Positions 680 to 29,522 of a stretch of DNA of 32,000 bases are shown piece by piece. The stretch's first letter is position 1. The number at the start of each line of letters is the position of its first letter. The position numbers were made by a program, and so were the translations under genes. The DNA is taken from positions 27,944 to 59,943 of the forward strand of contig JAUWKS010000015.1 in assembly GCA_030614005.1 (NCBI GenBank). Direction: 5' to 3'. The stretch is from Candidatus Heimdallarchaeota archaeon (GTDB taxonomy: Archaea > Asgardarchaeota > Heimdallarchaeia > JABLTI01). Below the pieces are notes generated by a model. It had not been told where the DNA came from. It saw only the letters and a list, made by a program, of their open reading frames with translations, and ran no database searches.

Positions 680-716
680 GCGGGGGTAGCCCAGCTAGGT
701 CAAAGGCGCAGGGTTT
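680..716 (+). pseudogene. Orphan 5' half of a tRNA-Leu (acceptor 5' strand, D arm, anticodon stem 5' strand, U32-U33-U34)
   Basis: GCGGGGGTAGCCCAGCTAGGTCAAAGGCGCAGGGTTT is 33/37 identical to 7494-7530; no T-arm or acceptor 3' strand follows. Confidence 0.85.
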
Positions 717-5670: not shown

Positions 5671-5672
5671 TC

Positions 5673-5737: not shown

Positions 5738-5740
5738 AAA

Positions 5741-7339
5741 ATGTCTTCATTCCTTAAAAAATATTACTTCAAAATAACACTTCCAGAAAACAAAAAGAAA
5801 TACTTGAGCAATTTCAAACAGTTGATAGAGAAGGCTACTAAACAATCATTAGAAAAACTTTGGTCGGAAGAATGGATAACACAATTAGGAATAACTACAG
5901 TAAAAGCACATTGCATCATTACAGCAGGACGTATAAGTATTGAGGAAGAAGGAAAGAAAATATATCTTCCCTCACGAGTGCGAATGGGGATTGCAGAACG
6001 AATCGGCAGAATTCTAAGAAGTCAATACAAGAGAATGAAATGTTTCAATGATTGTTTGAAAATCATGGAAATTGTAGGAGTTAATGAAAACGAAAGCAAA
6101 CTCATTAAACTATTGAACTTAACCTTTAGAAGTTATAAGAATAAACCATATTATAAGAAAGTGCTACTATTACAAAACATCCGACTGATTAAAAATTGGC
6201 AACAAAAAATTAGTATTGATTTTCATATGTTATCTTACTGTAACATAGTAAAACCAACAATCAAAAATTTTGTTTTTCCTTATGGACCAGATAACTACCG
6301 AGAATTAGATTATATGGTTAGGAATACCAGTATATGGTTCAAAATCAGACTACCTACAACAATCAATTCGAGAAGCATTAATGATTGGGAGTGGATAGAA
6401 GGGCTCATCCCTATACCTGAAAAATTACAAAAGAAAATAAATGAAAGCACAAACCAACACCCAAAGAAACCAAGAATGATAACAAAAACACTCAAAGGAG
6501 GAAAGGAATATTTCTTCTTCAGTTTCCCTTGGAATTTTGAAAAGAAAAAAGTGGTACAAAAAGAACGAACTCGTGCTCTTGCAGTCGATCTCGGTTTGAA
6601 GAAAATTGCTACTGCAGTAGTTTGTGAAAAGGACAAGCAATTATCAAAACCAATCTACCTTAAGATTACTTCTAAACAATATCAACATATTGAGCGATTA
6701 TTCAAACACCTTCAAGGGATATCTATTCAAATAAAAAGAAAAACAGGGAATCACCGAAAACAGCAGGAAGAACAGGCAAGAATTTATAGAAAGCTCTCTC
6801 GAATAAAACATCAACTTGTACAAACAACTACTACTATTCTTATTGACAAAGCGAAACAATGGAATTGTAGTGAAATCATTCTTGAGGATTTACGAATGTT
6901 CAGACCTAAGAAGGGATTAAGGAAATGGTCACGACGATTAAATGAATGGTTACATGGACAAATTGCTCAAATATTAGAGTATAAAACAAATGAAGAAGGA
7001 ATTAAACTACTAAAAGTCACTCCATGGGGAACATCTATCCATTGCCCAAGATGTACAAACACTCGAGGCTTGAAAGTTACAAGTCCAACAATTCTCACAC
7101 CAAAAAAAAGTGGGAGATGGTTCTATTGCCCAAATTGTGGATTCAATGCAGATAGAGATTATAACGCAGCTTTGAATATTTTCCGTGCAAGATTCATCAA
7201 TTATCGAAAAATAAAGAGTCTAAAAGACACCAGCCCTATCCCCTATATGGAGATAGGAATTCCTTCGCCCGACCGTTCTTGGCGAAGGTCCAGAAATGAT
7301 CTAACAACTACTCAAGTGGTGTTAGTGACTGGGGGGTAA
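5741..7339 (+). CDS. tnpB: TnpB (IS200/IS605-family RNA-guided nuclease, Cas12f-sized, 532 aa)
   Basis: RuvC-I AVDLGLK, RuvC-II ILEDL, Zn finger CPRC...CPNCG, RuvC-III DRDYNAALNI; no tnpA nearby. Confidence 0.9.
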   Translation: MSSFLKKYYFKITLPENKKKYLSNFKQLIEKATKQSLEKLWSEEWITQLGITTVKAHCIITAGRISIEEEGKKIYLPSRVRMGIAERIGRILRSQYKRMKCFNDCLKIMEIVGVNENESKLIKLLNLTFRSYKNKPYYKKVLLLQNIRLIKNWQQKISIDFHMLSYCNIVKPTIKNFVFPYGPDNYRELDYMVRNTSIWFKIRLPTTINSRSINDWEWIEGLIPIPEKLQKKINESTNQHPKKPRMITKTLKGGKEYFFFSFPWNFEKKKVVQKERTRALAVDLGLKKIATAVVCEKDKQLSKPIYLKITSKQYQHIERLFKHLQGISIQIKRKTGNHRKQQEEQARIYRKLSRIKHQLVQTTTTILIDKAKQWNCSEIILEDLRMFRPKKGLRKWSRRLNEWLHGQIAQILEYKTNEEGIKLLKVTPWGTSIHCPRCTNTRGLKVTSPTILTPKKSGRWFYCPNCGFNADRDYNAALNIFRARFINYRKIKSLKDTSPIPYMEIGIPSPDRSWRRSRNDLTTTQVVLVTGG

Positions 7340-7390
7340 AGAATATTCTTTACCCAAATGAAAAGAACGGTAAGGCTTAGGACCTTGTAT
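7230..7390 (+). ncRNA. Putative TnpB omegaRNA (reRNA) scaffold overlapping the tnpB 3' end; boundaries approximate
   Basis: Stems 7235-7240/7252-7257 and 7262-7269/7281-7288, perfect palindrome 7334-7355, loop 7272-7280 pairing with 7363-7371 (pseudoknot), and 7285-7291/7380-7386. Confidence 0.7.
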
Positions 7391-7466: not shown

Positions 7467-7493
7467 TCTAAGTGAAAAAAATCTCTTAGTTCT

Positions 7494-7581
7494 GCGGGGA
7501 TAGCCCAGCATGGTCAAAGGCGCAGGATTTAGGCTCCTGTCTCGCAGGAGTACGCGCGTTCAAATCGCGTTCCCCGCACCA
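7494..7581 (+). tRNA. tRNA-Leu(UAG), intronless, CCA encoded
   Basis: Acceptor GCGGGGA/TCCCCGC, anticodon stem CAGGA/TCCTG with TAG at 7530-7532, long variable arm, T arm GCGCG-TTCAAAT-CGCGT, ACCA end. Confidence 0.97.
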
Positions 7582-7681
7582 ATCATATTATTTTCTATTA
7601 TTTGTTGTTACTTCCTTTCGTTGTTTTAAACTAAGATGTCTTTAAGAAAGCAAAGACGTACACTATTTCAGGAGAAATTTA

Positions 7682-9307
7682 ATGTCTGCATTCTTACATT
7701 GGGAATCGGATCCTTTACTACTCGATCTTACACCAACAGTACAAAACACTTGGGTAACTGCAAATGAATTATTGGAGAAAGAGACAAGGGACAAATTCCA
7801 AACAGAAGCAGAGCGTCTATTATTATATCCAATTATAATCCGTAAAGTAGATTTTATTACCGGTGAGCGCATTTTACAATCCTTCCCGTACATTCTCCTA
7901 AATCAAGAGTGGATTTCAAGGATACGAAAACAATCACTGGCTCATGCAGAGAAAGCACATCACTATTTTTTAGGGTCAAATATTTCAAAATCCATTCGAG
8001 ACTGGCAGCGAAAGATCATCAATTATCTCGAAGAGCAACAACGCCTCCCCTTTCCTCTTTTCCGGTTGATCCCCTCTTGGGAAACCTTCTTTCAAGGAAA
8101 ACAGTACATCCAATTTCAATCTGCACGAGGTGAAGGTTTTCAACTTCCACTCAAACTCACAGAAGAATTAGCATATTTAGTAGGTGTTGTGATGGGTGAT
8201 GGACACCTAGCGAACTACTTCGTTAATATAATTGATAGCTCGAAGGAGCATATTGAGAACCTTGTTAAATCATTAAAAAGAATATTTCAAACCAACATCG
8301 AATTTTTCGTTCAAAAAAACGCTCAAGCATGGAATGTCAATCTGCTTGGTAAATGGATTGTTCGGTTCTTTAATTTCCTATCCGGACAACCAATAGCCCA
8401 ACGAAAATATCCTCACTTGCGAGAACCACATCTCTTTCAAGACAAACCTTCCTTTCGTTCTGCCTTCTGGCGTGGACTTATGGATGCAGATGGGAGCTAT
8501 ATATCAACAATCAGTTTTGGCACAGCATCAAAAAAATTACTAAAAGATTTTTCAGACTTTTTAACCCAACAGAATATCCATCATCGATTCTATGAACAAT
8601 CAGTTTTTGGTGGTACAACATATAGTTTCAATATTGCTGGTGAATCTAGAAAGCAGTTTACACAGCTCATTGGTTCAAATCATCCGCAAAAAAAGTTGGA
8701 ATTAGAGAACTTACTCACTAGAAGAGTTAATCGTTTTGCTCGAAAAAGTGCAACATTGCGTAAACAAGGATTTTGGAAAGGGCAAGTAGTAGAAATTCAA
8801 CAAAAGAAAATGGTTGCTGGATATTTTAACTTTTTATTAATGCCACATTTCAGTTTGTCAACTTTCGGTGAAGAAATACGAAAATTGCGTCGTTTCCACA
8901 ATCACACTCAACAAAGTTTAGCAACAGAAGTCAATATTAAGAGGACATTGTTATCAAATTATGAGTTAAATATTACAACAATTCCAATAGCTGATTTAGA
9001 TAAAATATACTCATTCTATAATCGTTCATTATTAACCATTCTCAAAGAATATCCAAAGCTATTCATTCATTCTAGAAGTTCCCATTGTATGATAGATACC
9101 CAACCAAATAAAAAATTGTTACAATTACTAAGTGGTTTGCAATTTAAGGAAAGAGGATGTATAATGATTCTTAGAGAGAACAACAAGTCTAATGTTTCTT
9201 ATAGAGAAGAACTTAGTGATTATTTTTCCATAGATATAAAGTCAAATCGATTCCACAATTCAGCGCTTAATAACTTTGTAAGAGAGTTTTTTGTTCTTCG
9301 GAAGTAA
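7682..9307 (+). CDS. Free-standing double-motif LAGLIDADG-family protein fused to an XRE-type HTH
   Basis: LAYLVGVVMGDGHL and AFWRGLMDADGS motifs; EIRKLRRFHNHTQQSLATEVNIKRTLLSNYELN is an XRE HTH; AGGAG ribosome-binding site upstream. Confidence 0.8.
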   Translation: MSAFLHWESDPLLLDLTPTVQNTWVTANELLEKETRDKFQTEAERLLLYPIIIRKVDFITGERILQSFPYILLNQEWISRIRKQSLAHAEKAHHYFLGSNISKSIRDWQRKIINYLEEQQRLPFPLFRLIPSWETFFQGKQYIQFQSARGEGFQLPLKLTEELAYLVGVVMGDGHLANYFVNIIDSSKEHIENLVKSLKRIFQTNIEFFVQKNAQAWNVNLLGKWIVRFFNFLSGQPIAQRKYPHLREPHLFQDKPSFRSAFWRGLMDADGSYISTISFGTASKKLLKDFSDFLTQQNIHHRFYEQSVFGGTTYSFNIAGESRKQFTQLIGSNHPQKKLELENLLTRRVNRFARKSATLRKQGFWKGQVVEIQQKKMVAGYFNFLLMPHFSLSTFGEEIRKLRRFHNHTQQSLATEVNIKRTLLSNYELNITTIPIADLDKIYSFYNRSLLTILKEYPKLFIHSRSSHCMIDTQPNKKLLQLLSGLQFKERGCIMILRENNKSNVSYREELSDYFSIDIKSNRFHNSALNNFVREFFVLRK

Positions 9308-9571
9308 TGTGTTGAATTTAGAAAGAAAAAACTCAATAGTTCACGCTTGGTGGCGTGCTCGCATCGCCGCTACTCATCGCTTACAGCGATTCCTCACGCG
9401 TCAGTACGAATAATTATTGAAAAATTTTTATAAAAAATGCCAAAAACTACAAATCTAGCATAATCAGAAAGGAATGTCATTTTTTCTGCCGCTTATAAAG
9501 GAGAAGAGCATTTTTTAGCTCTTTATAAATAAAACCGACAAAAAGTACATTGAGAGATAGCTTCTGATAAT

Positions 9572-12500
9572 TTGGAAGGCATTTTCTCCTTTGAGAGTGG
9601 TTTAATGAGTATAGAAACATTCACGAAAAAGAGCATCCCTCTTTGCCTTTCATTAGGCATTACTTCTGTTTTAGAGCAAGGAGAATTGTTAGATGATCCT
9701 GTATTACATACCTTAACTCCCGAAGAACAAAAATTACTAGTGCTAAATGACAAAAGTCTCGCTTTAATATGCAAAAATTATCAACCAAAAAAACGCAGTC
9801 TTAATCCTATCCTAGTTTCCCTTGCAGTTCGTCGAATACTAGCTTTAAGAAAGCATAGTAAATTTCCGGTCTTTATTGTTGTAAAGTCAAAGAAGGATGG
9901 AGAAGCGTTACTTAATGAACTAACCAAATATGCAGATACTTGTAAACTCTATAATATGATCTTTAATTTGAAAGACAAAATTGATCAGGATTTTAAATCC
10001 CAGAACCATACCACAGCCGATTTTATTCTGCTCACCTATAAAAAACTGAGAGATTTAGTGGTGAACAAAGTTTGTCCAACAACAGAACAAATAGTCTTTC
10101 TTAATCCGCTAACTAAATACCGATGCCAAGAGGAGATAATTGATTTAGATATAATTATTGGTGGGCTTTACAGGCATAAGTGTCGAAGACCTCAGCTTTC
10201 CTTTCTTCTAGATAGTGCTCAGTTTCCAGTGCTTACTCGAGATGAATACAAATACTTACTCAAAGTTGATGATTGTCTTTTCTTTCGCTGTCAAGAAGGG
10301 TTTCGAACACAGAACAACAAACCATTTAGAAATTTTTTACCAAATTTATCTGATGAACACTATCAATTTTTCATCTTTGGTGAGCTCTTTCGTGGAAGAA
10401 AAAGTTCCGCTGATTTACGAAGGAAAATTCAAGAGACTATAACATACAAGCTGCATCTATTTAGTAACAATATCTATCCAGAGTTAGCAAGGAACAACAT
10501 CGAACTCAAAAATAAAATAGAAAAACGAAAAATGAAAATAGATAAACGAGTGCAAATAAAACTTAATCAAATATTAAACTTATTTACCAAGGGAGTATCG
10601 CACACCATCTATGGGCACGTACAAAGCAATTCGATAAAAAACACTTTCTCCTGGCAGGAGCCAGCTGAATCCGCTCCTTTTCTTCCATTAGTGGTGAAGA
10701 AGAAAGATAGCAAATACTATCTTACAGGACTAGGAGAAGCAGTCCTTATTGCCACCTCAAATATTGCAGGAATAGAGCACGGTTTTTCATCCTTTTTAAA
10801 TAAATTAGCTGGTTGTTTATTCAAACGGAACAAAGCAAGCACCAAATTATCTCTCGAAGAGATCATTAGATTTTATTGTCTATTAGTCGGTCTAGAAAAT
10901 ATAGACTTTCCAGTATTACCAGAACAGAGTGAGCATAAAAATTTAGATTCTTTCGTTAATGATTCCTTTGATGTTTACGACCAATTTATTGAGCGAGAGT
11001 TTGGTTTTATAATCAAGGATTATGCCAGTTTTGCATCTATACAATTACTGAGTGCCTTTGAGAAATTAATGGAAACCAATGCTTTCCTATTCTTCCAACG
11101 ATTGAAAAGTTACAAAAAGAACAAGAAAAGAACATGGGAAGAAAAAAGAAGTGAAGCAATACTAAAATCTGCGGGGTATGAACCTGTAACTGTAAAGCAA
11201 ACTGGCTTGAAATTTCACCTTGACTTTCAAAAAACGAAAAAGGAGTTGGAAAATTTCAAAGCGGAAGGATTGCTTATCTCACTAAAAACTTTCGATAACA
11301 GTGGTAGTTCAGAACTCAAGTATGGTACTCCAGAATTATTTACTAAATTTCCATATCTAAAGAAAACGTGTGGGAATTGTATGTGCCATAATAAGCGATT
11401 CAAGACCTGTTTACTCCTACGTCTTCTCCAAGCACACAATCCAAGCTTAGTACCGAGTGACTATCAAAACTATGCTCAAAGCTCTATTAGATCAGAAGCA
11501 ACAGCGTGTAAATACCATAAAGATCTAGCTGATTTTGATTCTGTCCTCGATAGAGTGCGATTTACTGCAAATATCCAAAAACTCTCTCTAAAAATGAGAA
11601 AAATAGCTGATTCATACTTCCTTGGGCAAACAAAAAAAACTGTTTTCCATTGTTGCTCATGTCAAGAAAAAATTGCAGAGTTCGGTTCTGAGGAGCAGCT
11701 ATTCTTTCCTCGAAAACGTGTTAGTTGTCCAAAGTGTTCTACAGTTTATTTAAAGAAAAATGAAGAAAAAATAACTATTCATACTGAACATCGCCATTAT
11801 CTTAGAATGCTCTATTATCAAATAGCAGGGTCTATCCCACAAGTGTTGCTGGAAAAAGATCCTTCGTATGCTTTTGTAATCTACGATAATGAAATGATAA
11901 AGTTAGAAAGGAAGAGCGATAAATCATTTATTCTTAGTATCTGCAAAAATGAGATCCCACTTGAAAAAGTAGAATATATTTTCTTTTCAGGGAAACGCTA
12001 CAAAAGAATAGAGAAATTCTTAGAAACATTAGCACAATTTGAACCAGAGAAATACCATTACACTAATAGTAGAGCAAAACCTAAATTGAAGAAATCAAAA
12101 AAGAATTTGTCGAGTGAATCATCTCAAGAGAAACCATTCACTAAGGAACAATACCAGTTCCTGCAAACAATTATTTCCTATCTGGGTGAGAAGAAAACAT
12201 TCAACCAGTCATTTTTACAAGCTAGACATCTATCAAATATTGGCGGAGGGTTATACCTCAGAAAAACAAACCTAGGAAAAGAAAACCCGAATGAGTATAT
12301 TGATCGTCAGTTATTCGAAATGATTGATTTACAAATTAGGGTTGCAGGAGGGGTGCGCTCTCGTTATTATGGCATGCAATTGGAAGCACAAAGTAACAGA
12401 TTTTTCTTTGAATTGCTCAAAGATGAAGGGGCAAAAGTTGGTCTCTGGACGCGCGGAAGAGTTACCTCACGGTTAGTTAAGGATATGTTCCTTTCCTATA

Positions 12501-13708
12501 GCCGGAAAACGAGCTATGCATATGCACCATTAGATGTGATCCTAAATCAGTTTATCAGGGGCTTTCGCTCAGAAATTGATGAGATATTTAGAAGGATTGG
12601 TCTTGAGCCTGCTCTCATGGGTGCAGGATTATTCCATAAAAGACGAACAAAATCGGATATAGATAATCTTGGGTTATATTTTGATCTTATAGAACCTGTA
12701 CGAGTGCTTGCATTAATCACTATGTTTGAAGCAATGCAGGCAGGAGTACTCACTATTGATGACTGTTCACTCGTTCTAGGGCAGAAAGGACAAGAGATCT
12801 ATCGGATAAAAAACAACGCTCAAAAGAAAATCAAAAAACTAATCACAGCAGCAGTTTCACTGCCAGTATATTTGCAAGGTAAAACTACTCCCTTTCTCCA
12901 AGCATTTGAGCAATATTTACTAACTTTTAGAGAAGCAATCTTGAGTTGTTTTGAAGATTTTCGACAGGAAAAACAGCTAAGCATGAGAAAAATCAAACAA
13001 TGTTTTCAAGAAGCAAATTTTAACCCTTTTGTTATATGCCCTTCTGGAATCGAAAGCGATCTCTCCCTGGTGAACAAGTTTGCTACAGAGTATGCAGACT
13101 TGTATGCCGGAAGCGAAGAGAGAGTTCTCGCAGCAAGAGATGCTCGTAATGCATTTCGAGGGATTGTAATACAGGAATGGCGTATTTGGAATAATAAGCG
13201 AGGACGGGATAAATTACAGCTCACTACATTCCAAAAGAAGGAACAGGATAGAAGTTTGCTAATAGTACTGGTTCTACTTTCCTATGCTCTTCAGATGGAA
13301 CTATATTTCGCAAAATATTCAACAAATCATATTCGAGAACTATTACAATTGACGCAAAATCAAACCCAAAGGATTCTTTCGCAAATGGTTAATCGGGGTT
13401 TGTTAATTCGTGAAAAAATCAACAGTCAATGCTATTATCAATTAAACACCACCAATCGAATGGTACAGGAATTACTATACTCTATAGGAAAAATTCCTAC
13501 TGAAGGAGAAATGCTTCTAGAGTTGGTAAGAAACTTTGACCATATCAATACAAGAACAATCAATCTAATTACCTCTTTGGAAGCGATTGATCACTCTCTT
13601 CAGCTAAAGCAAAACAATTTATGGATTGATTGGTTCCCTCCGAGAACTTTACTGCGAATTATGAATCGTATTGTAGAGCACCTGAAAATTTATGGACAAT
13701 ATTTCTGA
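9572..13708 (+). CDS. Giant multidomain Cas1-like protein: degenerate helicase-like N-terminus, wHTH, Cys-rich/Zn ribbon, Cas1 catalytic domain, C-terminal wHTH (start may be ATG 9605)
   Basis: GMQLEAQSNRFFF, PLDVILNQF, IGLEPALMGAGLFH and LYFDLIEPVR align by eye to the Cas1 motifs LxGxEGxAAxxYF, DPxNxxLNYGY, GLDPxxGxLH and LxxDLxExFR; E938, H1022, D1038/E1041. Confidence 0.75.
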   Translation: MEGIFSFESGLMSIETFTKKSIPLCLSLGITSVLEQGELLDDPVLHTLTPEEQKLLVLNDKSLALICKNYQPKKRSLNPILVSLAVRRILALRKHSKFPVFIVVKSKKDGEALLNELTKYADTCKLYNMIFNLKDKIDQDFKSQNHTTADFILLTYKKLRDLVVNKVCPTTEQIVFLNPLTKYRCQEEIIDLDIIIGGLYRHKCRRPQLSFLLDSAQFPVLTRDEYKYLLKVDDCLFFRCQEGFRTQNNKPFRNFLPNLSDEHYQFFIFGELFRGRKSSADLRRKIQETITYKLHLFSNNIYPELARNNIELKNKIEKRKMKIDKRVQIKLNQILNLFTKGVSHTIYGHVQSNSIKNTFSWQEPAESAPFLPLVVKKKDSKYYLTGLGEAVLIATSNIAGIEHGFSSFLNKLAGCLFKRNKASTKLSLEEIIRFYCLLVGLENIDFPVLPEQSEHKNLDSFVNDSFDVYDQFIEREFGFIIKDYASFASIQLLSAFEKLMETNAFLFFQRLKSYKKNKKRTWEEKRSEAILKSAGYEPVTVKQTGLKFHLDFQKTKKELENFKAEGLLISLKTFDNSGSSELKYGTPELFTKFPYLKKTCGNCMCHNKRFKTCLLLRLLQAHNPSLVPSDYQNYAQSSIRSEATACKYHKDLADFDSVLDRVRFTANIQKLSLKMRKIADSYFLGQTKKTVFHCCSCQEKIAEFGSEEQLFFPRKRVSCPKCSTVYLKKNEEKITIHTEHRHYLRMLYYQIAGSIPQVLLEKDPSYAFVIYDNEMIKLERKSDKSFILSICKNEIPLEKVEYIFFSGKRYKRIEKFLETLAQFEPEKYHYTNSRAKPKLKKSKKNLSSESSQEKPFTKEQYQFLQTIISYLGEKKTFNQSFLQARHLSNIGGGLYLRKTNLGKENPNEYIDRQLFEMIDLQIRVAGGVRSRYYGMQLEAQSNRFFFELLKDEGAKVGLWTRGRVTSRLVKDMFLSYSRKTSYAYAPLDVILNQFIRGFRSEIDEIFRRIGLEPALMGAGLFHKRRTKSDIDNLGLYFDLIEPVRVLALITMFEAMQAGVLTIDDCSLVLGQKGQEIYRIKNNAQKKIKKLITAAVSLPVYLQGKTTPFLQAFEQYLLTFREAILSCFEDFRQEKQLSMRKIKQCFQEANFNPFVICPSGIESDLSLVNKFATEYADLYAGSEERVLAARDARNAFRGIVIQEWRIWNNKRGRDKLQLTTFQKKEQDRSLLIVLVLLSYALQMELYFAKYSTNHIRELLQLTQNQTQRILSQMVNRGLLIREKINSQCYYQLNTTNRMVQELLYSIGKIPTEGEMLLELVRNFDHINTRTINLITSLEAIDHSLQLKQNNLWIDWFPPRTLLRIMNRIVEHLKIYGQYF

Positions 13709-13724
13709 TAAACAGGTGAATTAC

Positions 13725-16700
13725 ATGACTAAAATAAATGATATTAATAGACAAAATGACACAACTCAAAAATTTCCTTTAGAAGTAACTACTCCAAGAG
13801 AATGGGTTCCAATACTTACATTACCACCATCCAAACCAAGAGTGAAGACCGATTTTGTTTGGGCAGATCTCCTCCCTAAAGAAGCAGAAGGGTTCGGAGC
13901 AGTTCTTGAGTCAATAGTGCAAAGTAATCACCCCTATGAGCATCAAGAAGAAGCAATACAACATTTGCTGAATTCATCAACCACTAATAATGGGTTAATC
14001 ATTAATGGTGGAACGTATTCAGGGAAATCACTCTCGTTTAGTGTTCCTGGAATAGCTAAAATATTAACAGGTGAAACTGATTTTTTTGTTGTATTCTATC
14101 CATCGAAACAGCTCTTGTTGGATCAATTTGACCGTATGAAAGAATTAGTTGTAAAATTGGAAGAGCAGAGTGGGAAACGATTATCGGTTAAGATGTATAG
14201 TGGCGATACTAGCAGATCAACAGGTTCAACAGCTAGTAGGCAAGTACAAAAAAAAGAGCTCTTCGAAACAGAGCAACATCCACCAAACATCCTTTTAGCA
14301 ACGTTCGATAAATTTTGGTACCAGATGATGAGTGGAAAAAAGAATCCGTTGTTTGATAAAATTATGTCTTGTCAATATTTGGTTTTTGATGAGATACATG
14401 CCTTTGAAGGCTTTGCTGCAGCAATCATTAAGGGATTTGTACAGATACACAAGAAAAAGAATCCCAAGTGTCATGTTGTTCTTTCCTCCGCAACGATTGA
14501 CAATGTTATTGGTTTTCGAGATGATTTCTTACAAGGGGCAGGAATTATTACCTGCCCTCCTGTACGTGGTGAACATGAATTTCTTGGAATAACGAAAGAG
14601 CATACTGTACCTTTTCTTGCTGATCTTTGGCACGAACTAGATACTTTACCGGGAAAATTCTGCTTAGTATTCATGGACTCTAAAGAGGAGATTGAATTAT
14701 TAGCGGAACGACTGTGTGCAAAGCTTAAGCAAGACCACCCATTCTTTGAGGAAATAACTGTAGTAATAATTCATGCGGACTTGGCGTATGCTCAACGAAA
14801 AAAGATACTTGATGAGATAAAGAAGGGAACAAGGAATAGAATAAAGATACTCATTTCCTCTTCTGTTTTAGAGCTAGGAGTTAATATCCCAAATGTCCAA
14901 ACAGTAGTAAATATCGGGATACCAATAACACAAAAGGATGGTATTGTCCAAAGATTCGCTCGAAACCGTTCTAACCCAAGTGAAAGACGGGTGAATGTCT
15001 GTATTTTTAATCTAGCTAATTCTCGAGACAACTTCTATTGGCATCATCTGGAAATACTACGTAATATACTTGAAACAAATGCATGTAATCCCATATTGTA
15101 TCCAAGGCAGAACCCCAAGATTTTAGCAGGCTTGCTTGTGCTACATTTACGATATGGTATCAATGATTATCAAGAAATAATGTCGTTCTTCTTGAAAGAA
15201 GGAAGGAAAGTCTATGAAATAGCTCGACAGCAATACACTAAACTCATTAGTTTCAACGTGCTAAAAAAAGCACAAGGTAAAATATTGTTTACCAACCAGG
15301 GAGAAAATAGACTTCTACAATTGAAAAACAAAAATGTTCTTGTTCCATTATCTATCCGAGCAATTAGTGCTAATTGGTCAATACAATTGAAGAAAGGTAT
15401 TGATACTATTCGGTTAACAGATCGAACAACTTCCCTAGGTAAAATTTCAACCAAAGATGTGCTAAAGAAAGGTTTGTCTGGTAATCTTATTATTAGGAAT
15501 AGGAAGAAATACCTAGTTACTGATGTCGATATTGGGCATAAAACTGTCTTTGTGAAAAAATATTTTATTGATGATTCGGATGATACATTCTCTTTACCAC
15601 CAATGAATCAATTATATGACCCAACAATTTCAGTTGGCGTATTTCCGAAGAAAATTCAAGGAACAAGATTAGTGGGCATTAATTTTGGATTGATAACCAC
15701 CTATCGAAAGCCTAAGATAATAGTTAATGCTAATCCAAATGCTATGTATCTTAATGAAAGTAGCAGGAACGAAAACAACAATTATTTTTATCAAGAATTG
15801 ACACAGCAAGAATCGGACGAGTTAACCCTATCTGAAAAATCAGAAGGTATCATCATAAACATGGAAAACGAATTATTAAAACCAAAAAACCTTACTGCTA
15901 AGAAAATGCTAAAATTATTTGGTGAGATTCTACTAATTGAAGCTGAGATGGTTCTTTCTATACCTGCTTCTGAATTTGAACTCGTGTATAATGCAAATCA
16001 ATTGGCAATTTATGATAAAGGAGAACCAAATGGAAATGCAGAATATTTGTTTTTACACTTACAGGAAGTAGCCCAACAAGCATTACAGAGATTAGGGCAA
16101 TGTTCCTGTGAGCGAGGGTGTGAATATTGCTATGGTGAGATTCTGGGTCTTTTACCTGATGGTTCCAAAGAATATCTAAAACAATTGGTAAAAGATATGG
16201 TCAATATTTCAAATTTAGAGACACTTGATCATATATCATTAATTGAACCCAATTTGGAAATCGATTCACAAGAGAATAGGATCATTGCTTTTTCAGACGT
16301 TCATCTTACACATGAGTTATGCTATCATGAAGAATTTTTTGATGTTATTAGTAAATTCAGCAAAAAGGCGGATGTTATTATTATAAATGGTGACTTGTTG
16401 GACAAAGTGTCTGAGGAAAGTAAAGATGTATTCAATCAATTAAAAACAAAAGCAATACAGGAGGGATACTGGTCGAAATTAGTGTTTATTCGAAGTTCTT
16501 CTATTCATGATGGCAATCTCGAACAATTTTCTGGTTTTCTCCACCAAGATTATGTTTATATTGAATCTAAAACAGAGCAAGTGCTTTTTGTCCATGGGAA
16601 TAAAATAGGTATAGATGCTAAGTTAGCGAATAGCACTAGTATTGAAGTAGCAGCTATTCAAGCGAAAAAAGAGCTCATTAAAACCGGTAGAAGCTGGCTG

Positions 16701-16883
16701 CCAGATATAACTGAGGGAACTCATTTAGTAATCGGTCATTTACATCATCGATTCTACAATGAGCGTTTCCGTGTGTATGGTTTAGGTCATTGGTTGAAGA
16801 AAGGAAAAGAACGTCATCAGAAAATCTTAATGATAATTGATTCAGCTAAGGAATTGGATGAAATAAAGCTTTATCAGTATTGA
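13725..16883 (+). CDS. YprA/MrfA/Hrq1-like DEAH helicase + DUF1998 Zn domain + calcineurin-like metallophosphoesterase
   Basis: Q motif PYEHQEEAI, GGTYSGKS, DEIH, SAT, LELGVNIP; DUF1998-type IYD...CSCERGCEYC; MPE motifs SDVH, NGDLLD, IHD, VHG, GHLH; AGGTGA ribosome-binding site favours ATG 13725 over 13692. Confidence 0.85.
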   Translation: MTKINDINRQNDTTQKFPLEVTTPREWVPILTLPPSKPRVKTDFVWADLLPKEAEGFGAVLESIVQSNHPYEHQEEAIQHLLNSSTTNNGLIINGGTYSGKSLSFSVPGIAKILTGETDFFVVFYPSKQLLLDQFDRMKELVVKLEEQSGKRLSVKMYSGDTSRSTGSTASRQVQKKELFETEQHPPNILLATFDKFWYQMMSGKKNPLFDKIMSCQYLVFDEIHAFEGFAAAIIKGFVQIHKKKNPKCHVVLSSATIDNVIGFRDDFLQGAGIITCPPVRGEHEFLGITKEHTVPFLADLWHELDTLPGKFCLVFMDSKEEIELLAERLCAKLKQDHPFFEEITVVIIHADLAYAQRKKILDEIKKGTRNRIKILISSSVLELGVNIPNVQTVVNIGIPITQKDGIVQRFARNRSNPSERRVNVCIFNLANSRDNFYWHHLEILRNILETNACNPILYPRQNPKILAGLLVLHLRYGINDYQEIMSFFLKEGRKVYEIARQQYTKLISFNVLKKAQGKILFTNQGENRLLQLKNKNVLVPLSIRAISANWSIQLKKGIDTIRLTDRTTSLGKISTKDVLKKGLSGNLIIRNRKKYLVTDVDIGHKTVFVKKYFIDDSDDTFSLPPMNQLYDPTISVGVFPKKIQGTRLVGINFGLITTYRKPKIIVNANPNAMYLNESSRNENNNYFYQELTQQESDELTLSEKSEGIIINMENELLKPKNLTAKKMLKLFGEILLIEAEMVLSIPASEFELVYNANQLAIYDKGEPNGNAEYLFLHLQEVAQQALQRLGQCSCERGCEYCYGEILGLLPDGSKEYLKQLVKDMVNISNLETLDHISLIEPNLEIDSQENRIIAFSDVHLTHELCYHEEFFDVISKFSKKADVIIINGDLLDKVSEESKDVFNQLKTKAIQEGYWSKLVFIRSSSIHDGNLEQFSGFLHQDYVYIESKTEQVLFVHGNKIGIDAKLANSTSIEVAAIQAKKELIKTGRSWLPDITEGTHLVIGHLHHRFYNERFRVYGLGHWLKKGKERHQKILMIIDSAKELDEIKLYQY

Positions 16884-17034
16884 CAAAGCTAAATCATCCC
16901 TCTGTTAATTTTTCATAAATACTCATAAATTTCTCTATAAAGCGAATTCAAGGTTTTCAACAATATAATAATAGAACCTTAAAATTAATAAGCTATCAAG
17001 TAAGATTAATTTGTTGATTGGTGAGAGGAAAAAA

Positions 17035-18606
17035 ATGACCAAACAAAATGAAAACACAAACGGAACGCTTGAAGACTATATACCTGAAGAACAAATACAA
17101 CGAAAGAAAGTAACTCAACAACACTTAGAAAGTCATTTATGGGAATCAGCAAATATACTAAGAGGTAGCATTGACTCATCAGATTATAAGAATTACATTT
17201 TCGGTCTATTATTCTTGAAAAGAATAAATGATGTTTTTAATGAAGAAGCAATCAAAGAAGAAAAAGAATTACTGAAAGGAGATTATACAGAAGCGGATGC
17301 AAAAAAACTGGCTTGGGAGGATGAGGATTTTCATCAATTCTTTGTTCCTAAAAGAGCTAGATGGTCAGAAATAAGAAAGATTACTCAAGACATTGGGGAT
17401 AAACTAAACAAAGCATTTGAAGAATTGGAAAATAAGAATTCTGTTTTACAAGGAGTGTTGTCAAGTGTTGATTTCAATGATAAAGAACGATTACCCGATG
17501 AAATTCTCTCTAAATTATTACTGCATTTCACAAAAATAAGGTTACGAAACAGTGATCTTACAGAGCCTGATATTATGGGTAGAGCATATGAATACCTGAT
17601 AAAGCAGTTTGCTGATGATGCAGGAAAGAAAGGAGGAGAATTTTATACTCCAAGAGGAGTTGTCAAGTTAATTGTTCAGCTAATTCAACCAGAAGAAAGC
17701 ATGAGAATTTGTGATCCAACTGTAGGTTCTGGAGGCATGCTTATTGAATGTGCAAAATATGTTGAGGAACAAGGAGGAAACCTTTGGGATCTATCTCTTT
17801 ATGGTCAAGAAAAGAATCTCAATACTTGGGCAATTTGTAAGATGAATATGCTCTTTCATGATTTACTAGATGCAGATATTAAAAAGGGAGATACGATACG
17901 AGAACCAAAATTACTAGAAGGAGGAGAGTTAATGCTATTTGATAGAGTGATAGCTAATCCACCTTTCAGTTTGAAGAATTGGGGACGAGAAACAGCTGAA
18001 AATGATGGTTTTCAGAGGTTTAGATTTGGTGTCCCTCCAAAAAGCTATGGTGAAATGGCTTTTCTACAGCATATGATAGCAACCATTAATGTTAATGGAA
18101 AAATAGGAGTAGTAATGCCCCACGGAGTGCTTTTTAGAGGTGGAGCTGAAAAGAGAATACGTGAGGGGATATTACAGGAGGATTTACTCGAAGCAGTTAT
18201 TGGTTTAGCTCCTAAACTTTTCTATGGAACTAGAATACCTGCCAGTATTTTAATAATAAATAAGAACAAACCTGCTGAACGAAAGAATAAAATATTCTTT
18301 ATCGACGCTTCAAAAGATTATGAAGAAGGGAAAGCACAAAACGCTCTTAGAGAGAAGGATATTGAGAAAATCGTTAATGCATACTCAAAAGGGAAGGACA
18401 TTGAAAAATTCTGTAAATCTGTTGATCTTGAGGAAATCAAAGAAAATGACTTCAATTTGAACATTTCACTATATGTCTTTAATTTTGAGGAGGAGGAAGA
18501 AATTGATATCCAACAAGTGCTTGATGAATTGAAGGTTCATGAAAAAGAACGTGAAGAGCTAAATCAGAAGGTTCAAGGTTATTTGGAGGAATTGGGATTT
18601 GAGTAG
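17035..18606 (+). CDS. hsdM: Type I restriction-modification methyltransferase subunit
   Basis: GGEFYTPR, DPTVGSGG (motif I), ANPPF (motif IV, m6A); GGTGAGAGG ribosome-binding site before ATG 17035. Confidence 0.97.
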   Translation: MTKQNENTNGTLEDYIPEEQIQRKKVTQQHLESHLWESANILRGSIDSSDYKNYIFGLLFLKRINDVFNEEAIKEEKELLKGDYTEADAKKLAWEDEDFHQFFVPKRARWSEIRKITQDIGDKLNKAFEELENKNSVLQGVLSSVDFNDKERLPDEILSKLLLHFTKIRLRNSDLTEPDIMGRAYEYLIKQFADDAGKKGGEFYTPRGVVKLIVQLIQPEESMRICDPTVGSGGMLIECAKYVEEQGGNLWDLSLYGQEKNLNTWAICKMNMLFHDLLDADIKKGDTIREPKLLEGGELMLFDRVIANPPFSLKNWGRETAENDGFQRFRFGVPPKSYGEMAFLQHMIATINVNGKIGVVMPHGVLFRGGAEKRIREGILQEDLLEAVIGLAPKLFYGTRIPASILIINKNKPAERKNKIFFIDASKDYEEGKAQNALREKDIEKIVNAYSKGKDIEKFCKSVDLEEIKENDFNLNISLYVFNFEEEEEIDIQQVLDELKVHEKEREELNQKVQGYLEELGFE

Positions 18607-19888
18607 ATTATTAATGAATAATATTGATTATCCTAATAGTTGGAAAAAAACTAAATTAACTAAAATTTTCAGGGTAATAAAAGGTCAAAGCTATAAAAGT
18701 GAATTTTACTGTAATGAAGAGAAAGGTAGAATTTTTATTAATTTAAAATGTATTCAGAAATTTGGTGGTTTTAATTTTGATGGTATAAAATTTTATTGTG
18801 GTAAAGTCGATGAAGAGAAATTAGTAAAACCTGGCGAGCTAATTATTGCTAATACTGATCTAACAAGAAAAGCTGATGTTGTAGGTTATCCAATTTATGT
18901 ACCTGATTTTTATTCTAACAAAGAAATCGCTACTTCAATGGATGTCTCAATTTTGAGACCAAAAAATAATTATATCTTACAAAAATTCTTTTATTATTTA
19001 TTAGGTTCGAAAAAAATTCATAATATAATTTCTTCGATTTCAGAAGGATCAACTGTCTTGCATTTGAATATTGATTTATTGAAGAAATTAGTTATACCTG
19101 TTCCTCCTATAATTGAACAAAAGAAGATTTCTGAAATATTGCAGTCCATTGATAATGATATTCAGAAAATTCAAGAAATAATTTCCAAAACTAAACTTCT
19201 TAAACAAGGTCTCCTCCAACAATTATTAACCAAAGGCATCGGTCACACGGAGTTCAAGGAGACGCCCCTCGGGAGGACACCAAAAGAATGGAAAATTGTA
19301 GAATTAAAAGATATATGTCATCAGATTACTGATGGAAAACATGGAGATTGTAGAAATCAGAATAATTCCGGTTATTATTTTATTAGCGTAAAGGATATGA
19401 TCGATAGTAAATTAGATTATTCTAAAGCAAGACAAATAGTAGAGGATGATTTTATTGAGACACATAGAAGAACACAATTAGAATGCGGTGATATACTAAT
19501 CGCTAGCACAGGTGCTACTATTGGAAAAATAGCAATAGCTGAAGATAAAATAAGAACTTCAAGAACAACATTTCAAAAAAGTGTAGCTATTATTAAACCT
19601 AATAAGGAGATAGTCGATTCAAAATACTTGGCATATTTTCTAGAACTCTCGAACAGGAGAATAAAAAAATCTTCATATGGAGGTGCACAAAAAAATCTTC
19701 TTCTTCGAGATTTAAGGAAATTTAAAGTGATCCTCCCAAAATTAAGTTTTCAAAAAGAGATAGTTCATTTGTTTTCACTAATTGATGAAAAATTAACAAT
19801 TGAGAAAAAAATTTTAATTAGATTACAGCTTTTAATGAAAGGTCTTATGCAACAACTTCTAACAGGAAAAATACGAGTAAAAATATAG
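18599..19888 (+). CDS. hsdS: Type I R-M specificity subunit
   Basis: Two TRDs with conserved repeats (VPPIIEQKKI...KQGLLQQLLTKG; KGLMQQLLTGKIRV); overlaps the hsdM stop. Confidence 0.95.
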   Translation: MSRLLMNNIDYPNSWKKTKLTKIFRVIKGQSYKSEFYCNEEKGRIFINLKCIQKFGGFNFDGIKFYCGKVDEEKLVKPGELIIANTDLTRKADVVGYPIYVPDFYSNKEIATSMDVSILRPKNNYILQKFFYYLLGSKKIHNIISSISEGSTVLHLNIDLLKKLVIPVPPIIEQKKISEILQSIDNDIQKIQEIISKTKLLKQGLLQQLLTKGIGHTEFKETPLGRTPKEWKIVELKDICHQITDGKHGDCRNQNNSGYYFISVKDMIDSKLDYSKARQIVEDDFIETHRRTQLECGDILIASTGATIGKIAIAEDKIRTSRTTFQKSVAIIKPNKEIVDSKYLAYFLELSNRRIKKSSYGGAQKNLLLRDLRKFKVILPKLSFQKEIVHLFSLIDEKLTIEKKILIRLQLLMKGLMQQLLTGKIRVKI

Positions 19889-19900
19889 AAGAGGAAAGAA

Positions 19901-22879: not shown

Positions 22880-22906
22880 TATAAATGACAATTATAATAC
22901 AATTAT

Positions 22907-23644
22907 GTGGTATTTATGACTCATGTGATGTTTGGTAAAACAAAAATTGATTATAAAACGGAAATAAGCAACAAACGCAAAACCGTTGGCGTTTCAGTTG
23001 ATTATAATAATGGAGTCATTGTTACTTTACCAAAGAATATATCACAAGAAGAAATCGATAGAGTTGTTCTCCAAAAAGCTCCCTGGATTTTAGACAAGTT
23101 ACATGAATTTGGTGAAGTTATTATCAAACCATCTGATAATGAATTTGTTAGTGGTGAGAAATACCTCTATCTAGGCAGAGGTTACAGATTAAAGGTTATT
23201 GAGAGCGAAGATGTCATTAAACCTAGTCTAGTTTTTTACAGGGGAAAATTCCTTGTTACCATTAACAATAATATTACTGAAGAGGAACAAACACAAATAG
23301 TCAGAGATCAAATTCTTAAATGGTACATAGAAAAAGCAGAACTATTCCTTAAAGAGAGGGTTAGCATTCTTTCTGAGAAAACCGGCATACAACCTCAAGG
23401 AATGAGGGTCAGAGAACAACAGAAAAGATGGGGTAGCTGTACCAAAGATAACATCTTGATTTTCAACAGGTTAATTATTATGGCTCCTGTATCTGTAATC
23501 GATTATATTATTATTCATGAACTCTGTCATCTAAAATATCCTAATCATTCAGAGAACTTTTGGAAAGAGGTAGCTGTTTTTTGCCCAGACTTTCAAAATA
23601 GAAGAGATTGGTTGAGAATAAGAGGACCAGAATTATCATTTTAG
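22907..23644 (+). CDS. M48/YgjP (DUF45)-family metal-dependent hydrolase, commonly found next to type I R-M
   Basis: QQKRWGSC and IDYIIIHELCHL (HExxH). Confidence 0.9.
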   Translation: MVFMTHVMFGKTKIDYKTEISNKRKTVGVSVDYNNGVIVTLPKNISQEEIDRVVLQKAPWILDKLHEFGEVIIKPSDNEFVSGEKYLYLGRGYRLKVIESEDVIKPSLVFYRGKFLVTINNNITEEEQTQIVRDQILKWYIEKAELFLKERVSILSEKTGIQPQGMRVREQQKRWGSCTKDNILIFNRLIIMAPVSVIDYIIIHELCHLKYPNHSENFWKEVAVFCPDFQNRRDWLRIRGPELSF

Positions 23645-25819: not shown

Positions 25820-25867
25820 ATCTTGTTTTGTAGAAGTTCGCGCGTTCGAATCGCGCACTCCGCACCA
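25820..25867 (+). repeat. Orphan, decayed 3' half of a tRNA-Leu (att-like)
   Basis: ATCTTG-TTTTGTAGAAGTTC-GCGCG-TTCGAAT-CGCGC-ACTCCGC-ACCA is colinear without gaps with 7534-7581; no 5' half upstream. Confidence 0.85.
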
Positions 25868-25910
25868 GTTCTTGACGTCTATAATAAAACATTAATAATC
25901 TGTTGAAAAA

Positions 25911-25945
25911 TAGATTAATGTAATTAAAAACACTATTGATTTCAC
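25911..25945 (+). repeat. Left copy of a 35/36-bp direct repeat flanking the dcd operon
   Basis: TAGATTAATGTAATTAAAAACACTATTGATTTCAC vs 29523-29558: 32/36 aligned, last 18 bp identical. Confidence 0.8.
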
Positions 25946-26025
25946 CAGTAGAACCAACAAGTAGATTTTTAGAAAAAAATATTTTGAGAACCATGGGGTA
26001 TAAAATTAGATTCTGAATATTCCTT

Positions 26026-26661: not shown

Positions 26662-26673
26662 TTTCTGTGTCCC

Positions 26674-28083: not shown

Positions 28084-28090
28084 TATTTAG

Positions 28091-29294: not shown

Positions 29295-29522
29295 TATCTA
29301 TAAAATCATTTTATCACTTATTTTTTTCCTATTAATTAAAATCAATTTATAACCCAAACTAAATGATCTCTAATTTGCTTGCTAAATTACGCATTTCATT
29401 ATAGGTCTAATTTTAATTAAAGGACTAATGATGGAAATATTGTTTACTAACGATCTTGTTCAATTATCTATTATATAACGTAAAATGTGTTTAGTTGTCA
29501 GAGGAATTTAAATAATATAAGC

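What the first reader, a model, noticed from the sequence alone, without database searches (positions are those of the whole stretch)
7682..16883. CRISPR-less three-gene Cas1 module at a tRNA-Leu: LAGLIDADG-XRE, giant Cas1-like protein, helicase-phosphoesterase
Seen: three co-oriented genes starting 100 bp after the tRNA. The central 1378-aa protein has Cas1-type motifs with all predicted metal ligands (E938, H1022, D1038/E1041). The window has no CRISPR array, cas2, PolB, terminal inverted repeats or other recombinase, yet the 18.2-kb block is bracketed by a duplicated tRNA 3' half. Known: Cas1 is an integrase that duplicates its target; casposons use Cas1 to insert into tRNA genes (tRNA-Leu in Methanosarcina mazei, tRNA-Pro in Aciduliprofundum boonei) but encode PolB and have TIRs. 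Highly diverged large Cas1 homologues have been reported in Asgard archaea, so the protein family may already be known even if its mechanism is not. Inference: a non-casposon, Cas1-mobilised element, or a non-programmable defence system, that ferries R-M and Schlafen cargo.
Basis: partly seen in the sequence, partly recalled or inferred. Interest (0 to 1): 0.9.

Follow-up and report, generated by a model that had tools for sequence, protein, structure and literature searches.

The report
Asgard Cas1-like integrase module at tRNA-Leu
The three genes are one more copy of a multi-copy Heimdall-archaeal gene set built around a very divergent but intact Cas1-type DNA integrase. This copy sits at the tRNA end of an 18-kb insertion that a sister genome lacks. 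The kind is already catalogued by computation, and nobody has tested what it does.

Summary
Residues ~760-1135 of the 1378-aa protein fold as Cas1: all top 50 PDB matches are Cas1 or casposase, and E938, H1022, D1038 and E1041 are invariant in 15 homologues. Its N-terminal half looks like a dead Hel308-type helicase.

The module is not an orphan.
- It is a copy of the Asgard "aCas1" element core (Makarova 2020; Altae-Tran 2023, PMC10691335).
- It occurs at least 5 times in this genome.
- Elsewhere it lies between the ends of TnpB-type insertion sequences.
- This scan has already described paralogous copies on other DNA of this genome and related elements in other genomes (e1-1426061, e1-5382916, e1-1426056 and others).

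New here:
- A same-genus genome has the empty tRNA-Leu site, so the block is a true insertion.
- A second same-genus genome has the same island ends but a different aCas1-Cas4 cassette.
- Two further relatives of the module also abut tRNA 3' ends. One is followed by four near-perfect 31-37-nt tRNA-Ala 3' repeats that separate defence-gene cassettes, with no integrase.

The "duplicated tRNA half" is not a simple target duplication. The native tRNA lies in three colinear pieces, and the working tRNA is a diverged copy carried inside the inserted DNA.

My best reading is an integrase module of a mobile island (about 0.5). A defence role is not excluded.

The parts
680..713 (+). Native tRNA-Leu(TAG) positions 1-34. 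It sits at the orthologous distance (134 nt) from the JAB gene.
   Evidence: 34/34 identical to the tRNA of same-genus genome G001. It is part of a 465-nt, 90% alignment.
5741..7339 (+). TnpB gene (532 aa) of a separate upstream insertion (about 714-7371).
   Evidence: Pfam OrfB_IS605 and Cas12f1-like_TNB. It is 85% identical to the TnpB at the same place in G010.
7344..7388 (+). TnpB right end (7344-7371), followed by 17 nt that match native tRNA-Leu positions 31-47. This is the position of the omegaRNA guide.
   Evidence: The right-end motif is shared with contig C9-type TnpB copies. 15 of 17 positions match the G001 anticodon arm.
7494..7581 (+). Functional tRNA-Leu(TAG). It is a copy diverged from the native one and lies inside the inserted DNA.
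   Evidence: ARAGORN. It is 88% identical to the G001 tRNA and 98% to the G010 tRNA, and its upstream sequence is not the native one.
7582..7681 (+). Left junction and gene 1 leader. It is conserved with the G010 island. Homology to the paralogous module copies starts near 7630.
7682..9307 (+). Gene 1: a 541-aa two-domain LAGLIDADG protein with an XRE HTH. Both motif acids are kept (MGDG, DADG).
   Evidence: Pfam and PADLOC and the sequence itself. At least 13 paralogues occur in the genome, and several precede aCas1 cassettes.
9572..11371 (+). Gene 2, aa 1-600: an SF2-helicase-like (Hel308/Ski2-type) domain pair without Walker A/B, followed by a winged helix.
   Evidence: AF2 pLDDT 75. The listed Foldseek matches are almost all SF2 helicases, E about 2e-3. 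Atlas features agree. The winged helix matches RPC34-type winged helices.
11369..11776 (+). Gene 2, aa 600-735: two Cys4 clusters (zinc ribbons).
   Evidence: C600, C603, C613, C646 and C694, C697, C719, C722 are invariant.
11849..12976 (+). Gene 2, aa about 760-1135: the Cas1 fold (N-terminal beta domain plus catalytic helical domain) with E938, H1022, D1038 and E1041.
13289..13516 (+). Gene 2, C-terminal winged helix (aa about 1240-1315).
   Evidence: PADLOC PDC-M05A at 5.8e-5. Weak TrmB and MarR hits. This part is a separate 172-aa gene in the split C110 version.
13692..16883 (+). Gene 3: a 1063-aa MrfA/YprA-type DExH helicase with an MZB Zn domain and a C-terminal calcineurin-like phosphoesterase.
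   Evidence: Pfam, NCBIfam and PADLOC (best hit SngC, 6e-22).
16884..16964 (-). 80-nt remnant of the 3' end of a convergent hsdM gene. The paralogous copies carry it whole (C18) or truncated (C29). It marks the right limit of the shared module DNA.
17011..23644 (+). Type I restriction-modification operon (hsdM, hsdS, hsdR) plus a YgjP-like metallopeptidase. It is cargo of this island only.
   Evidence: Pfam. It is absent from the orthologous G010 island.
23953..25740 (+). Orc1/Cdc6 with a C-terminal domain that may be AlbA_2/Schlafen-like. It forms the conserved right part of the island.
   Evidence: NCBIfam ORC1-type at 1.5e-83. Atlas lead of 0.88. 88% identical in G010.
25828..25868 (+). Native tRNA-Leu 3' remnant (about positions 45/48-88), followed by the native downstream flank.
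25911..29558 (+). A third insertion relative to G001: 3.6 kb, GC 25%, with dCTP deaminase and two unknown genes. It is flanked by about 36-nt imperfect direct repeats of the native flank (25911-25945 and 29521-29558).

Best explanation
Shown. The 1378-aa protein is a fusion of a pseudo-helicase, a winged helix, two zinc ribbons, a Cas1 domain and a second winged helix, and its Cas1 active site is intact. With the LAGLIDADG-HTH protein and the helicase-phosphoesterase it forms the conserved core of a family of 'aCas1' elements found almost only in one genus. This copy lacks the TnpB gene and the IS-like ends that bound other copies. It forms the tRNA-proximal 9.3 kb of an 18.3-kb block inserted in the tRNA-Leu(TAG) gene.

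Inferred. The Cas1 domain is the integrase or transposase that moves such elements. It would make staggered strand transfers into a preferred target, often the 3' part of a tRNA gene, as casposases do. The winged helices, zinc ribbons and the LAGLIDADG-HTH partner would recognise (and perhaps cut) DNA. The helicase-phosphoesterase would process element ends or flaps. The restriction-modification and Orc1-fusion genes would ride along as cargo that benefits the host.
For: - Cas1 fold and catalytic residues.
- Multi-copy. The module occurs on C63 (the window), on contigs C8+C18 and C48+C29 (86-91% nt identity, assembly broken inside them), on C9 (40% aa identity) and as a split version on C110.
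- Complete copies lie between IS-type ends that are shared with many short TnpB-only copies. On C9 an 18-nt inverted repeat and left-end/right-end termini bound 11.1 kb. In another Heimdall genome the left-end start of the short copies lies just after gene 3 and the right end lies after tnpB.
- The genome has no Y1 TnpA, and its one tyrosine recombinase is on another contig.
- The block is a true insertion. Same-genus genome G001 has the JAB gene, 134 nt, tRNA-Leu and the native flank, uninterrupted.
- tRNA linkage recurs. The C110 module starts 116 nt after tRNA-Ala and is followed by four 31-37-nt, 97-100% identical 3'-end repeats. These delimit cassettes (MmeI restriction-modification plus NERD, UvrD, PIN) that hold no integrase. 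In another MAG, gene 3 overlaps a tRNA 3' end.
- G010 has a different aCas1-Cas4 cassette, also led by a gene 1 paralogue, at the same tRNA-Leu.
- Published inference: aCas1 is the likely transposase of TnpB-linked Asgard elements (PMC10691335).
Against: - No biochemical data exist for any aCas1.
- This copy has no recognisable element ends or inverted repeats.
- The two tRNA 3' copies differ at 5 of 33 positions, and the functional tRNA is a diverged copy inside the insert. The native tRNA lies in three colinear, almost non-overlapping pieces. So the repeat here is not evidence of a staggered-cut duplication.
- The G000 and G010 islands share both ends, so they descend from one insertion. Their interiors were probably swapped by recombination.
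- The right limits of the closest copies fall at different points inside an adjacent hsdM gene. This looks like segmental duplication rather than precise transposition.
- The neighbours are mostly defence genes, and gene 3 resembles defence helicases.
- An earlier follow-up on a paralogous copy had its boldest reading overturned on later checking.
Confidence: 0.5

Rival explanations
1. A non-programmable defence system. The helicase-phosphoesterase and the Cas1 domain would act as nucleases on invading DNA, the LAGLIDADG-HTH protein would act as sensor or regulator, and the system would reside in a defence island like other systems.
For: - Gene 3's best matches are defence helicases: SngC 6e-22, DruE, BrxH, DpdJ, Cas3. 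It also has an MZB/DUF1998 domain.
- Neighbours in five loci are restriction-modification systems (type I in the window and on C18, a remnant on C29, MmeI-type on C110 and L017), plus NERD, UvrD and PIN genes.
- Gene 1 has a WhiA-like LAGLIDADG+HTH architecture that would suit a regulator.
Against: - Four to five copies per genome at 86-91% nt identity, with assembly breaks, is typical of mobile DNA rather than of a defence system.
- Complete copies lie within IS-type ends shared with short TnpB copies.
- The full integrase-type catalytic set is conserved.
- No PADLOC system model matches the set as a whole.
Confidence: 0.2
2. Passive passenger. The island was inserted by a recombinase that is now lost or acts in trans (for example a tyrosine integrase that uses a tRNA-like attachment site). 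The aCas1 module arrived later, by recombination between paralogous gene 1 copies. Its own function, in TnpB-element transposition or something else, would then have nothing to do with the tRNA site.
For: - The functional tRNA's 3' part differs from the native remnant in the way element-supplied attachment-site sequence does. The G010 remnant is close to the G001 native tRNA.
- The same island ends hold different aCas1 cassettes in G000 and G010.
- Only the 9.3-kb module is repeated in the genome.
- Repeats that cover the tRNA 3' half are typical of archaeal integrase attachment sites (general knowledge).
Against: - No integrase or fragment of one is found in the window, in the C110 cassettes or in the G010 island. 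The genome's only tyrosine recombinase is on another contig.
- Three separate aCas1 modules abut tRNA 3' ends. With only 24 tRNAs detected in 3.6 Mb, this is unlikely by chance.
Confidence: 0.25

Closest known systems
Asgard 'aCas1' homologues and aCas1-TnpB loci (Makarova et al. 2020, CRISPR J 3:156; Altae-Tran et al. 2023, PMC10691335, groups Cas1H-Asgard-1/-2)
   Same: An extremely diverged Cas1 in Asgard archaea with no array or cas2. Paralogous copies are paired with TnpB and flanked by repeats. The literature predicts either a transposase or a non-programmable defence role.
   Different: This copy has no TnpB of its own and no element ends, and it sits next to a tRNA inside an island with cargo. 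The published GTTCACTCA motif downstream of tnpB was not found. I could not read the 2020 paper, so I cannot say whether this exact three-gene architecture is described there.
Casposons, especially family 2 (Methanosarcina mazei at tRNA-Leu, Aciduliprofundum boonei at tRNA-Pro)
   Same: A Cas1-family integrase without CRISPR. The fold matches casposase 6OPM. The preferred position is at tRNA 3' ends. The elements are multi-copy.
   Different: There is no PolB and no terminal inverted repeats here. The repeats are 31-41 nt rather than 14-15 bp. Cas1 is fused to a pseudo-helicase, winged helices and zinc ribbons, and its partners are a LAGLIDADG protein and a helicase-phosphoesterase.
CRISPR adaptation module Cas1-Cas2
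   Same: The Cas1 fold and the E/H/D-x-x-E site. The repeat length seen on C110 (31-37 nt) is in the range of CRISPR repeats.
   Different: There is no Cas2, no array and no leader. The units between the repeats are 1-16 kb gene cassettes, not spacers.
IS200/IS605-type TnpB elements
   Same: Other copies lie between asymmetric left and right ends. The TnpB omegaRNA scaffold ends at the right end, followed by a variable flank.
   Different: There is no Y1 TnpA in the genome. The three-gene aCas1 core occupies the place of the transposase gene.
MrfA/YprA and DUF1998-helicase defence proteins (DISARM DrmAB, Druantia DruE, Shango SngC)
   Same: Gene 3 has a DExH core and an MZB zinc domain.
   Different: It is fused to a calcineurin-like phosphoesterase and is always next to an aCas1 gene. 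It matches no complete named system.
WhiA-type LAGLIDADG-HTH proteins
   Same: Gene 1 has two LAGLIDADG domains followed by an HTH.
   Different: The acidic motif residues are kept, so cleavage is possible. There are 13 paralogues per genome, several of them leading aCas1 cassettes.

Membership tests
Cas1 superfamily | Two-domain Cas1 fold (N-terminal beta domain plus helical catalytic domain) | tested here: met
   AF2 model with pLDDT 81.5. All top 50 Foldseek PDB matches are Cas1 or casposase, E to 1.4e-9, about 380 aligned columns.
Cas1 superfamily | Conserved metal-binding residues (Glu, His, Asp/Glu pair) | tested here: met
   E938, H1022, D1038 and E1041 are invariant in 15 homologues. 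H and D are invariant and E nearly so when distant relatives are included. H and D-x-x-E align with casposase 6OPM.
Cas1 superfamily | Score above the Pfam PF01867 gathering threshold | tested here: not met
   The protein itself gives no hit, and the genome gives none either. A distant homologue (P0037) scores 45.5 bits against a 22.3-bit threshold.
Asgard aCas1-TnpB element | Diverged Cas1 gene next to a TnpB gene, with the locus flanked by repeats | tested here: inconclusive
   Met for paralogous and orthologous copies (C8, C9, L013, L016, L019). In the window the nearby TnpB belongs to a separate insertion on the other side of the tRNA, and no element ends are present.
Asgard aCas1-TnpB element | Hypervariable region and GTTCACTCA motif downstream of tnpB (PMC10691335) | tested here: not met
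   The motif is absent downstream of the tnpB genes examined. A conserved right end followed by a variable flank is present instead.
Casposon | Family B DNA polymerase in the element | tested here: not met
   No PolB domain in any ORF of the window scanned with Pfam.
Casposon | Terminal inverted repeats and a 14-15-bp target duplication | tested here: not met
   No inverted repeats at the module or island ends (junctions). The flanking repeat is 33-41 nt and imperfect.
CRISPR-Cas adaptation module | cas2 and a repeat-spacer array | tested here: not met
   No Cas2 in the genome. No array in the window.
IS200/IS605 | Y1 (HUH) TnpA transposase | tested here: not met
   No PF01797 match in the 90%-complete genome.
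Integrase-type tRNA island | Tyrosine or serine recombinase gene in the island | tested here: not met
   None in the window ORFs. The single PF00589 hit in the genome is on contig C58.
Named anti-phage systems (PADLOC) | All components match one system's models | tested here: not met
   Only the helicase gives partial hits (SngC, DruE, Cas3). Genes 1 and 2 give only HTH-type hits.

The most novel reading that the evidence does not exclude
aCas1 modules would act as cassette-capturing integrases. They would insert gene-sized DNA (their own module and defence-gene cassettes) next to a tRNA gene and duplicate about 35-40 bp of target each time. This would build tRNA-anchored arrays of cassettes separated by tRNA 3'-end repeats, a gene-scale counterpart of CRISPR spacer acquisition or an integron without a tyrosine integrase. 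Nearby, TnpB guides match the native tRNA, and the element supplies a diverged tRNA copy whose anticodon arm differs from that guide.
Probability: 0.2. Interest if true: 0.9.

Novelty: new member of a known kind. Interest (0 to 1): 0.6.

Why it matters
Cas1 is the enzyme that gave rise to CRISPR memory, and casposons are so far its only studied relatives outside CRISPR. The Heimdall aCas1 proteins are a third, untested branch with an intact active site and unusual partners.

This locus gives concrete substrates for a first biochemical test: an empty site, an occupied site, defined junctions, and a second tRNA with near-perfect 31-37-nt repeats. If the enzyme duplicates about 36 bp of target, that would bear directly on how repeat-length-defined integration evolved. 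If the module turns out to be a defence system, it would be a new use of Cas1. Either way, the class itself is already catalogued computationally.

Tried and rejected
- Single-sequence searches for Cas1 (Pfam, NCBIfam, PADLOC, PDB phmmer, and the full-length family profile against PDB) gave nothing. Only the domain profile and the fold search worked.
- The default repeat finder did not list the tRNA repeat, because mismatches break its seeds.
- No inverted repeats were found at the module or island ends.
- No left-end or right-end motif of either TnpB-IS type was found in the window beyond the right end of the window's own TnpB.
- The GTTCACTCA motif of PMC10691335 is not present downstream of the tnpB genes.
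- No tRNA-Asp 3' repeats occur in the C9 island. No repeat of the L015 tRNA occurs within that contig.
- My first tRNA scan of the other copies ran without intron mode and wrongly suggested that there was no tRNA link. An intron-aware scan corrected this.
- I laid Logan contigs of four cold-seep or marine-sediment runs on 6900-26400. Coverage was fragmentary (depth about 4-5) and no contig joined across the island. Contigs cannot show rare excised or empty forms, so this says nothing either way.
- Makarova et al. 2020 could not be read. What I say about it comes from papers that cite it and from memory.
- I rejected the idea that the distal tRNA piece comes from another tRNA-Leu isoacceptor. 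Comparison with G001 showed that it is the decayed native 3' end.
Full report
**Anatomy.** The window is contig C63:27944-59943 of a 3.6-Mb, 90%-complete genome with 33.5% GC. The named homologues all come from Heimdallarchaeota MAGs, and the DNA is held by cold-seep and marine-sediment runs. ARAGORN finds one tRNA, tRNA-Leu(TAG), at 7494-7581. Three intact co-oriented ORFs follow at 7682-9307, 9572-13708 and 13692-16883. After them come a type I restriction-modification operon, a YgjP-like peptidase and an Orc1/Cdc6 gene with a 200-aa extension. A TnpB gene lies at 5741-7339.

**Is the central protein a Cas1?** On its own it hits no Cas1 model in Pfam, NCBIfam, PADLOC or PDB sequences. Homologues are rare:
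- 16 clusters in 5.8 billion proteins.
- 21 representatives in 1.8 billion.
- Among 250 sampled genomes of the phylum, matches fall almost only in the window's own genus.

In 15 full-length homologues, E938, H1022, D1038 and E1041 are invariant. A profile of aa 745-1135 that includes distant relatives hits casposase 6OPM at E 0.002, with the His and the D-x-x-E pair aligned. One distant relative, P0037, passes Pfam Cas_Cas1 at 7e-12. The AF2 model (pLDDT 81.5) finds only Cas1 or casposase chains among its top 50 PDB matches, with E down to 1.4e-9 and both domains aligned. The Cas1 fold and site are therefore confirmed.

The N-terminal 600 residues (pLDDT 75) match almost only SF2 helicases such as Hel308, Brr2 and Mtr4, at weak E-values. 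I see no Walker A or B motif in the sequence. The region reads as a pseudo-helicase plus a winged helix, followed by two invariant Cys4 clusters and, after the Cas1 domain, a second winged helix.

**The partners.**
- Gene 1 has two LAGLIDADG motifs that keep their acids, plus an XRE HTH.
- Gene 3 is a DExH helicase with an MZB domain and a calcineurin-type phosphoesterase. Its nearest matches are defence helicases.

**The module is multi-copy.** The same three genes recur on contigs C8+C18 and C48+C29 (86-91% nt identity, with the assembly broken inside them), on C9 (40% aa identity) and, split into smaller genes, on C110. DNA homology to the window runs only from about 7630 to 16964. The repeated unit is therefore the 9.3-kb module, not the 18-kb block.

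Gene 1 has at least 13 paralogues. Several of them lead a second cassette whose 672-aa protein is another diverged Cas1 (hhalign 99.3%, E 3e-20) next to a Cas4-like PD-(D/E)xK nuclease. The genome has no Pfam Cas1, Cas2 or Y1 TnpA, and its single tyrosine recombinase is on another contig.

**Link to TnpB elements.** On C8, C9, C15, C48 and C86, and in two other Heimdall genomes, a TnpB gene is transcribed divergently from gene 1 across a conserved spacer.

Short TnpB-only copies of the C8 type share a defined left end, the first few bases of gene 1, the spacer, tnpB, and a right end that is followed by variable sequence. In genome GCA_050009915.1 the same left-end start lies just downstream of gene 3. 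The long element there is therefore left end, gene 3, gene 2, gene 1, tnpB, right end, about 11 kb in all.

On C9 an 18-nt inverted repeat and left-end/right-end termini bound 11.1 kb. The same termini occur at many contig ends.

This matches the published note that Asgard aCas1 replaces the transposase in some TnpB elements and that such loci are flanked by repeats (PMC10691335). Earlier follow-ups of this scan reached the same reading on the C9 copy and in other genomes.

The window copy has none of these ends. Its right limit falls 80 nt into the 3' end of a convergent hsdM gene that is whole on C18 and truncated on C29. That pattern looks like segmental duplication or recombination rather than precise transposition.

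**The tRNA site.** Same-genus genome G001 carries the JAB gene, 134 nt, tRNA-Leu(TAG) and then sequence homologous to window 25869-25923 and 29522-29880. It is therefore an empty site, and the block after the tRNA is a real insertion.

The native tRNA of the window is in three colinear pieces:
- Positions 1-34 at 680-713. These are 34/34 identical to G001 and sit at the orthologous distance from the JAB gene.
- Positions 31-47 at 7372-7388. These match at 15 of 17 positions and lie directly after the TnpB right end, which is the omegaRNA guide position.
- Positions about 45/48-88 at 25828-25868, followed by the native flank.

The working tRNA at 7494-7581 differs from the native type in the acceptor stem, the D loop and the anticodon stem, and it has a non-native upstream region. 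It is therefore carried inside the inserted DNA. So the 28-of-33 repeat that brackets the island is the native gene's remnant, not proof of a staggered-cut duplication.

Same-genus genome G010 has the same TnpB, the same tRNA copy, the same left junction (about 85% identity over 130 nt, into the gene 1 start) and the same right end (Orc1 88% identical, then the tRNA remnant). Between them lie a gene 1 paralogue (43% identity), a Cas4-like gene and a 627-aa Cas1 of the second family, with no restriction-modification system. The two islands share an origin, and their interiors were exchanged.

**Is tRNA adjacency recurrent?** Yes.
- The split module on C110 starts 116 nt after tRNA-Ala(TGC). Four direct repeats of the tRNA's last 31-37 nt (97-100% identity) follow at 16.4, 19.9, 22.7 and 23.7 kb downstream.
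- These repeats delimit four cassettes: (1) the module with NERD and MmeI-type restriction-modification genes; (2) a remnant of an older module copy plus two further genes; (3) a UvrD helicase; (4) a PIN-like gene. None contains an integrase.
- In another MAG, gene 3 overlaps the 3' end of a tRNA confirmed by Rfam.
- A third insertion in the window (25946-29520) is flanked by about 36-nt repeats of non-tRNA flank.

The similar repeat length on different targets is suggestive. It is not proof of a Cas1-type duplication.

**Verdict.** But the module belongs to a class already described computationally and already met by this scan. Most copies lie inside TnpB-type ends, and nothing yet shows that Cas1 made this insertion.

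I rate an integrase module of a mobile island as most likely (about 0.5). The rivals are a passive-passenger reading (0.25) and a defence system (0.2). Laying public contigs on the locus gave no excision or empty-site junctions, but contigs cannot show rare forms.

Noticed in passing
window 7344-7388: The 17 nt directly after the TnpB right end, where an omegaRNA guide is taken, match the anticodon arm of the native-type tRNA-Leu(TAG) at 15 of 17 positions. They do not match the diverged functional tRNA 100 nt downstream. The TnpB may be aimed at the native tRNA gene, and the diverged copy carried in the inserted DNA would not match that guide.
   Followed up: partly
window 714-7371: A 6.7-kb low-GC (29%) insertion splits the native tRNA-Leu at position 34 and ends with the TnpB right end. 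It carries an unannotated two-gene unit (405 and 455 aa), two small ORFs and an AbrB-like gene. It is absent from G001.
   Followed up: partly
window 25911-29558: A 3.6-kb insertion (GC 25%) holds dCTP deaminase and two unknown genes. It is flanked by about 36-nt imperfect direct repeats of the native tRNA-downstream flank and is absent from G001.
   Followed up: partly
G000 contig C110:34604-58449 (L021, L024): tRNA-Ala(TGC) is followed by four 31-37-nt, 97-100% identical repeats of its 3' end. These separate four cassettes of 16.3, 3.5, 2.7 and 1.0 kb (split aCas1 module with NERD and MmeI genes; module remnant plus two genes; UvrD; PIN-like). No integrase is present.
   Followed up: partly
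G000 contigs C67:40710-46796, C9:127789-134196, C78, C122 (L020): A second aCas1 family: a gene 1 paralogue, a 246-aa protein, a 672-aa zinc-ribbon-Cas1 protein (hhalign 99.3% to the window's Cas1 profile), a 228-aa winged-helix protein and a Cas4-like PD-(D/E)xK nuclease. At least four copies are present.
   Followed up: partly
window 23953-25740: A full-length Orc1/Cdc6 carries a 200-aa C-terminal domain whose language-model features resemble SLFN_AlbA_2 (score 0.88). Pfam does not detect it. In G010 the gene appears split into 392-aa and 180-aa ORFs.
   Followed up: partly
G000 contig C8:196-4302 (L007) and C71:90626-90718: The C8 copy of the Cas1-like gene has one in-frame TAG. ARAGORN also predicts a tRNA with a CTA anticodon (Pyl-type) on C71. 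The TAG could be a defect or a decoded codon.
   Followed up: no
G000 contig C9:134528-139771 (L008:2529-7772): A 1747-aa NERD-NACHT protein lies next to the C9 element, inside a long island downstream of tRNA-Asp.
   Followed up: no
L017/L018 (GCA_019058195.1): A 27%-identical relative of the Cas1 fusion is preceded by a Rad51/RadA-like ATPase. After it come a helicase, a separate 207-aa gene, an MmeI-type restriction-modification gene and an inverted gene 1 paralogue. No TnpB is present.
   Followed up: no
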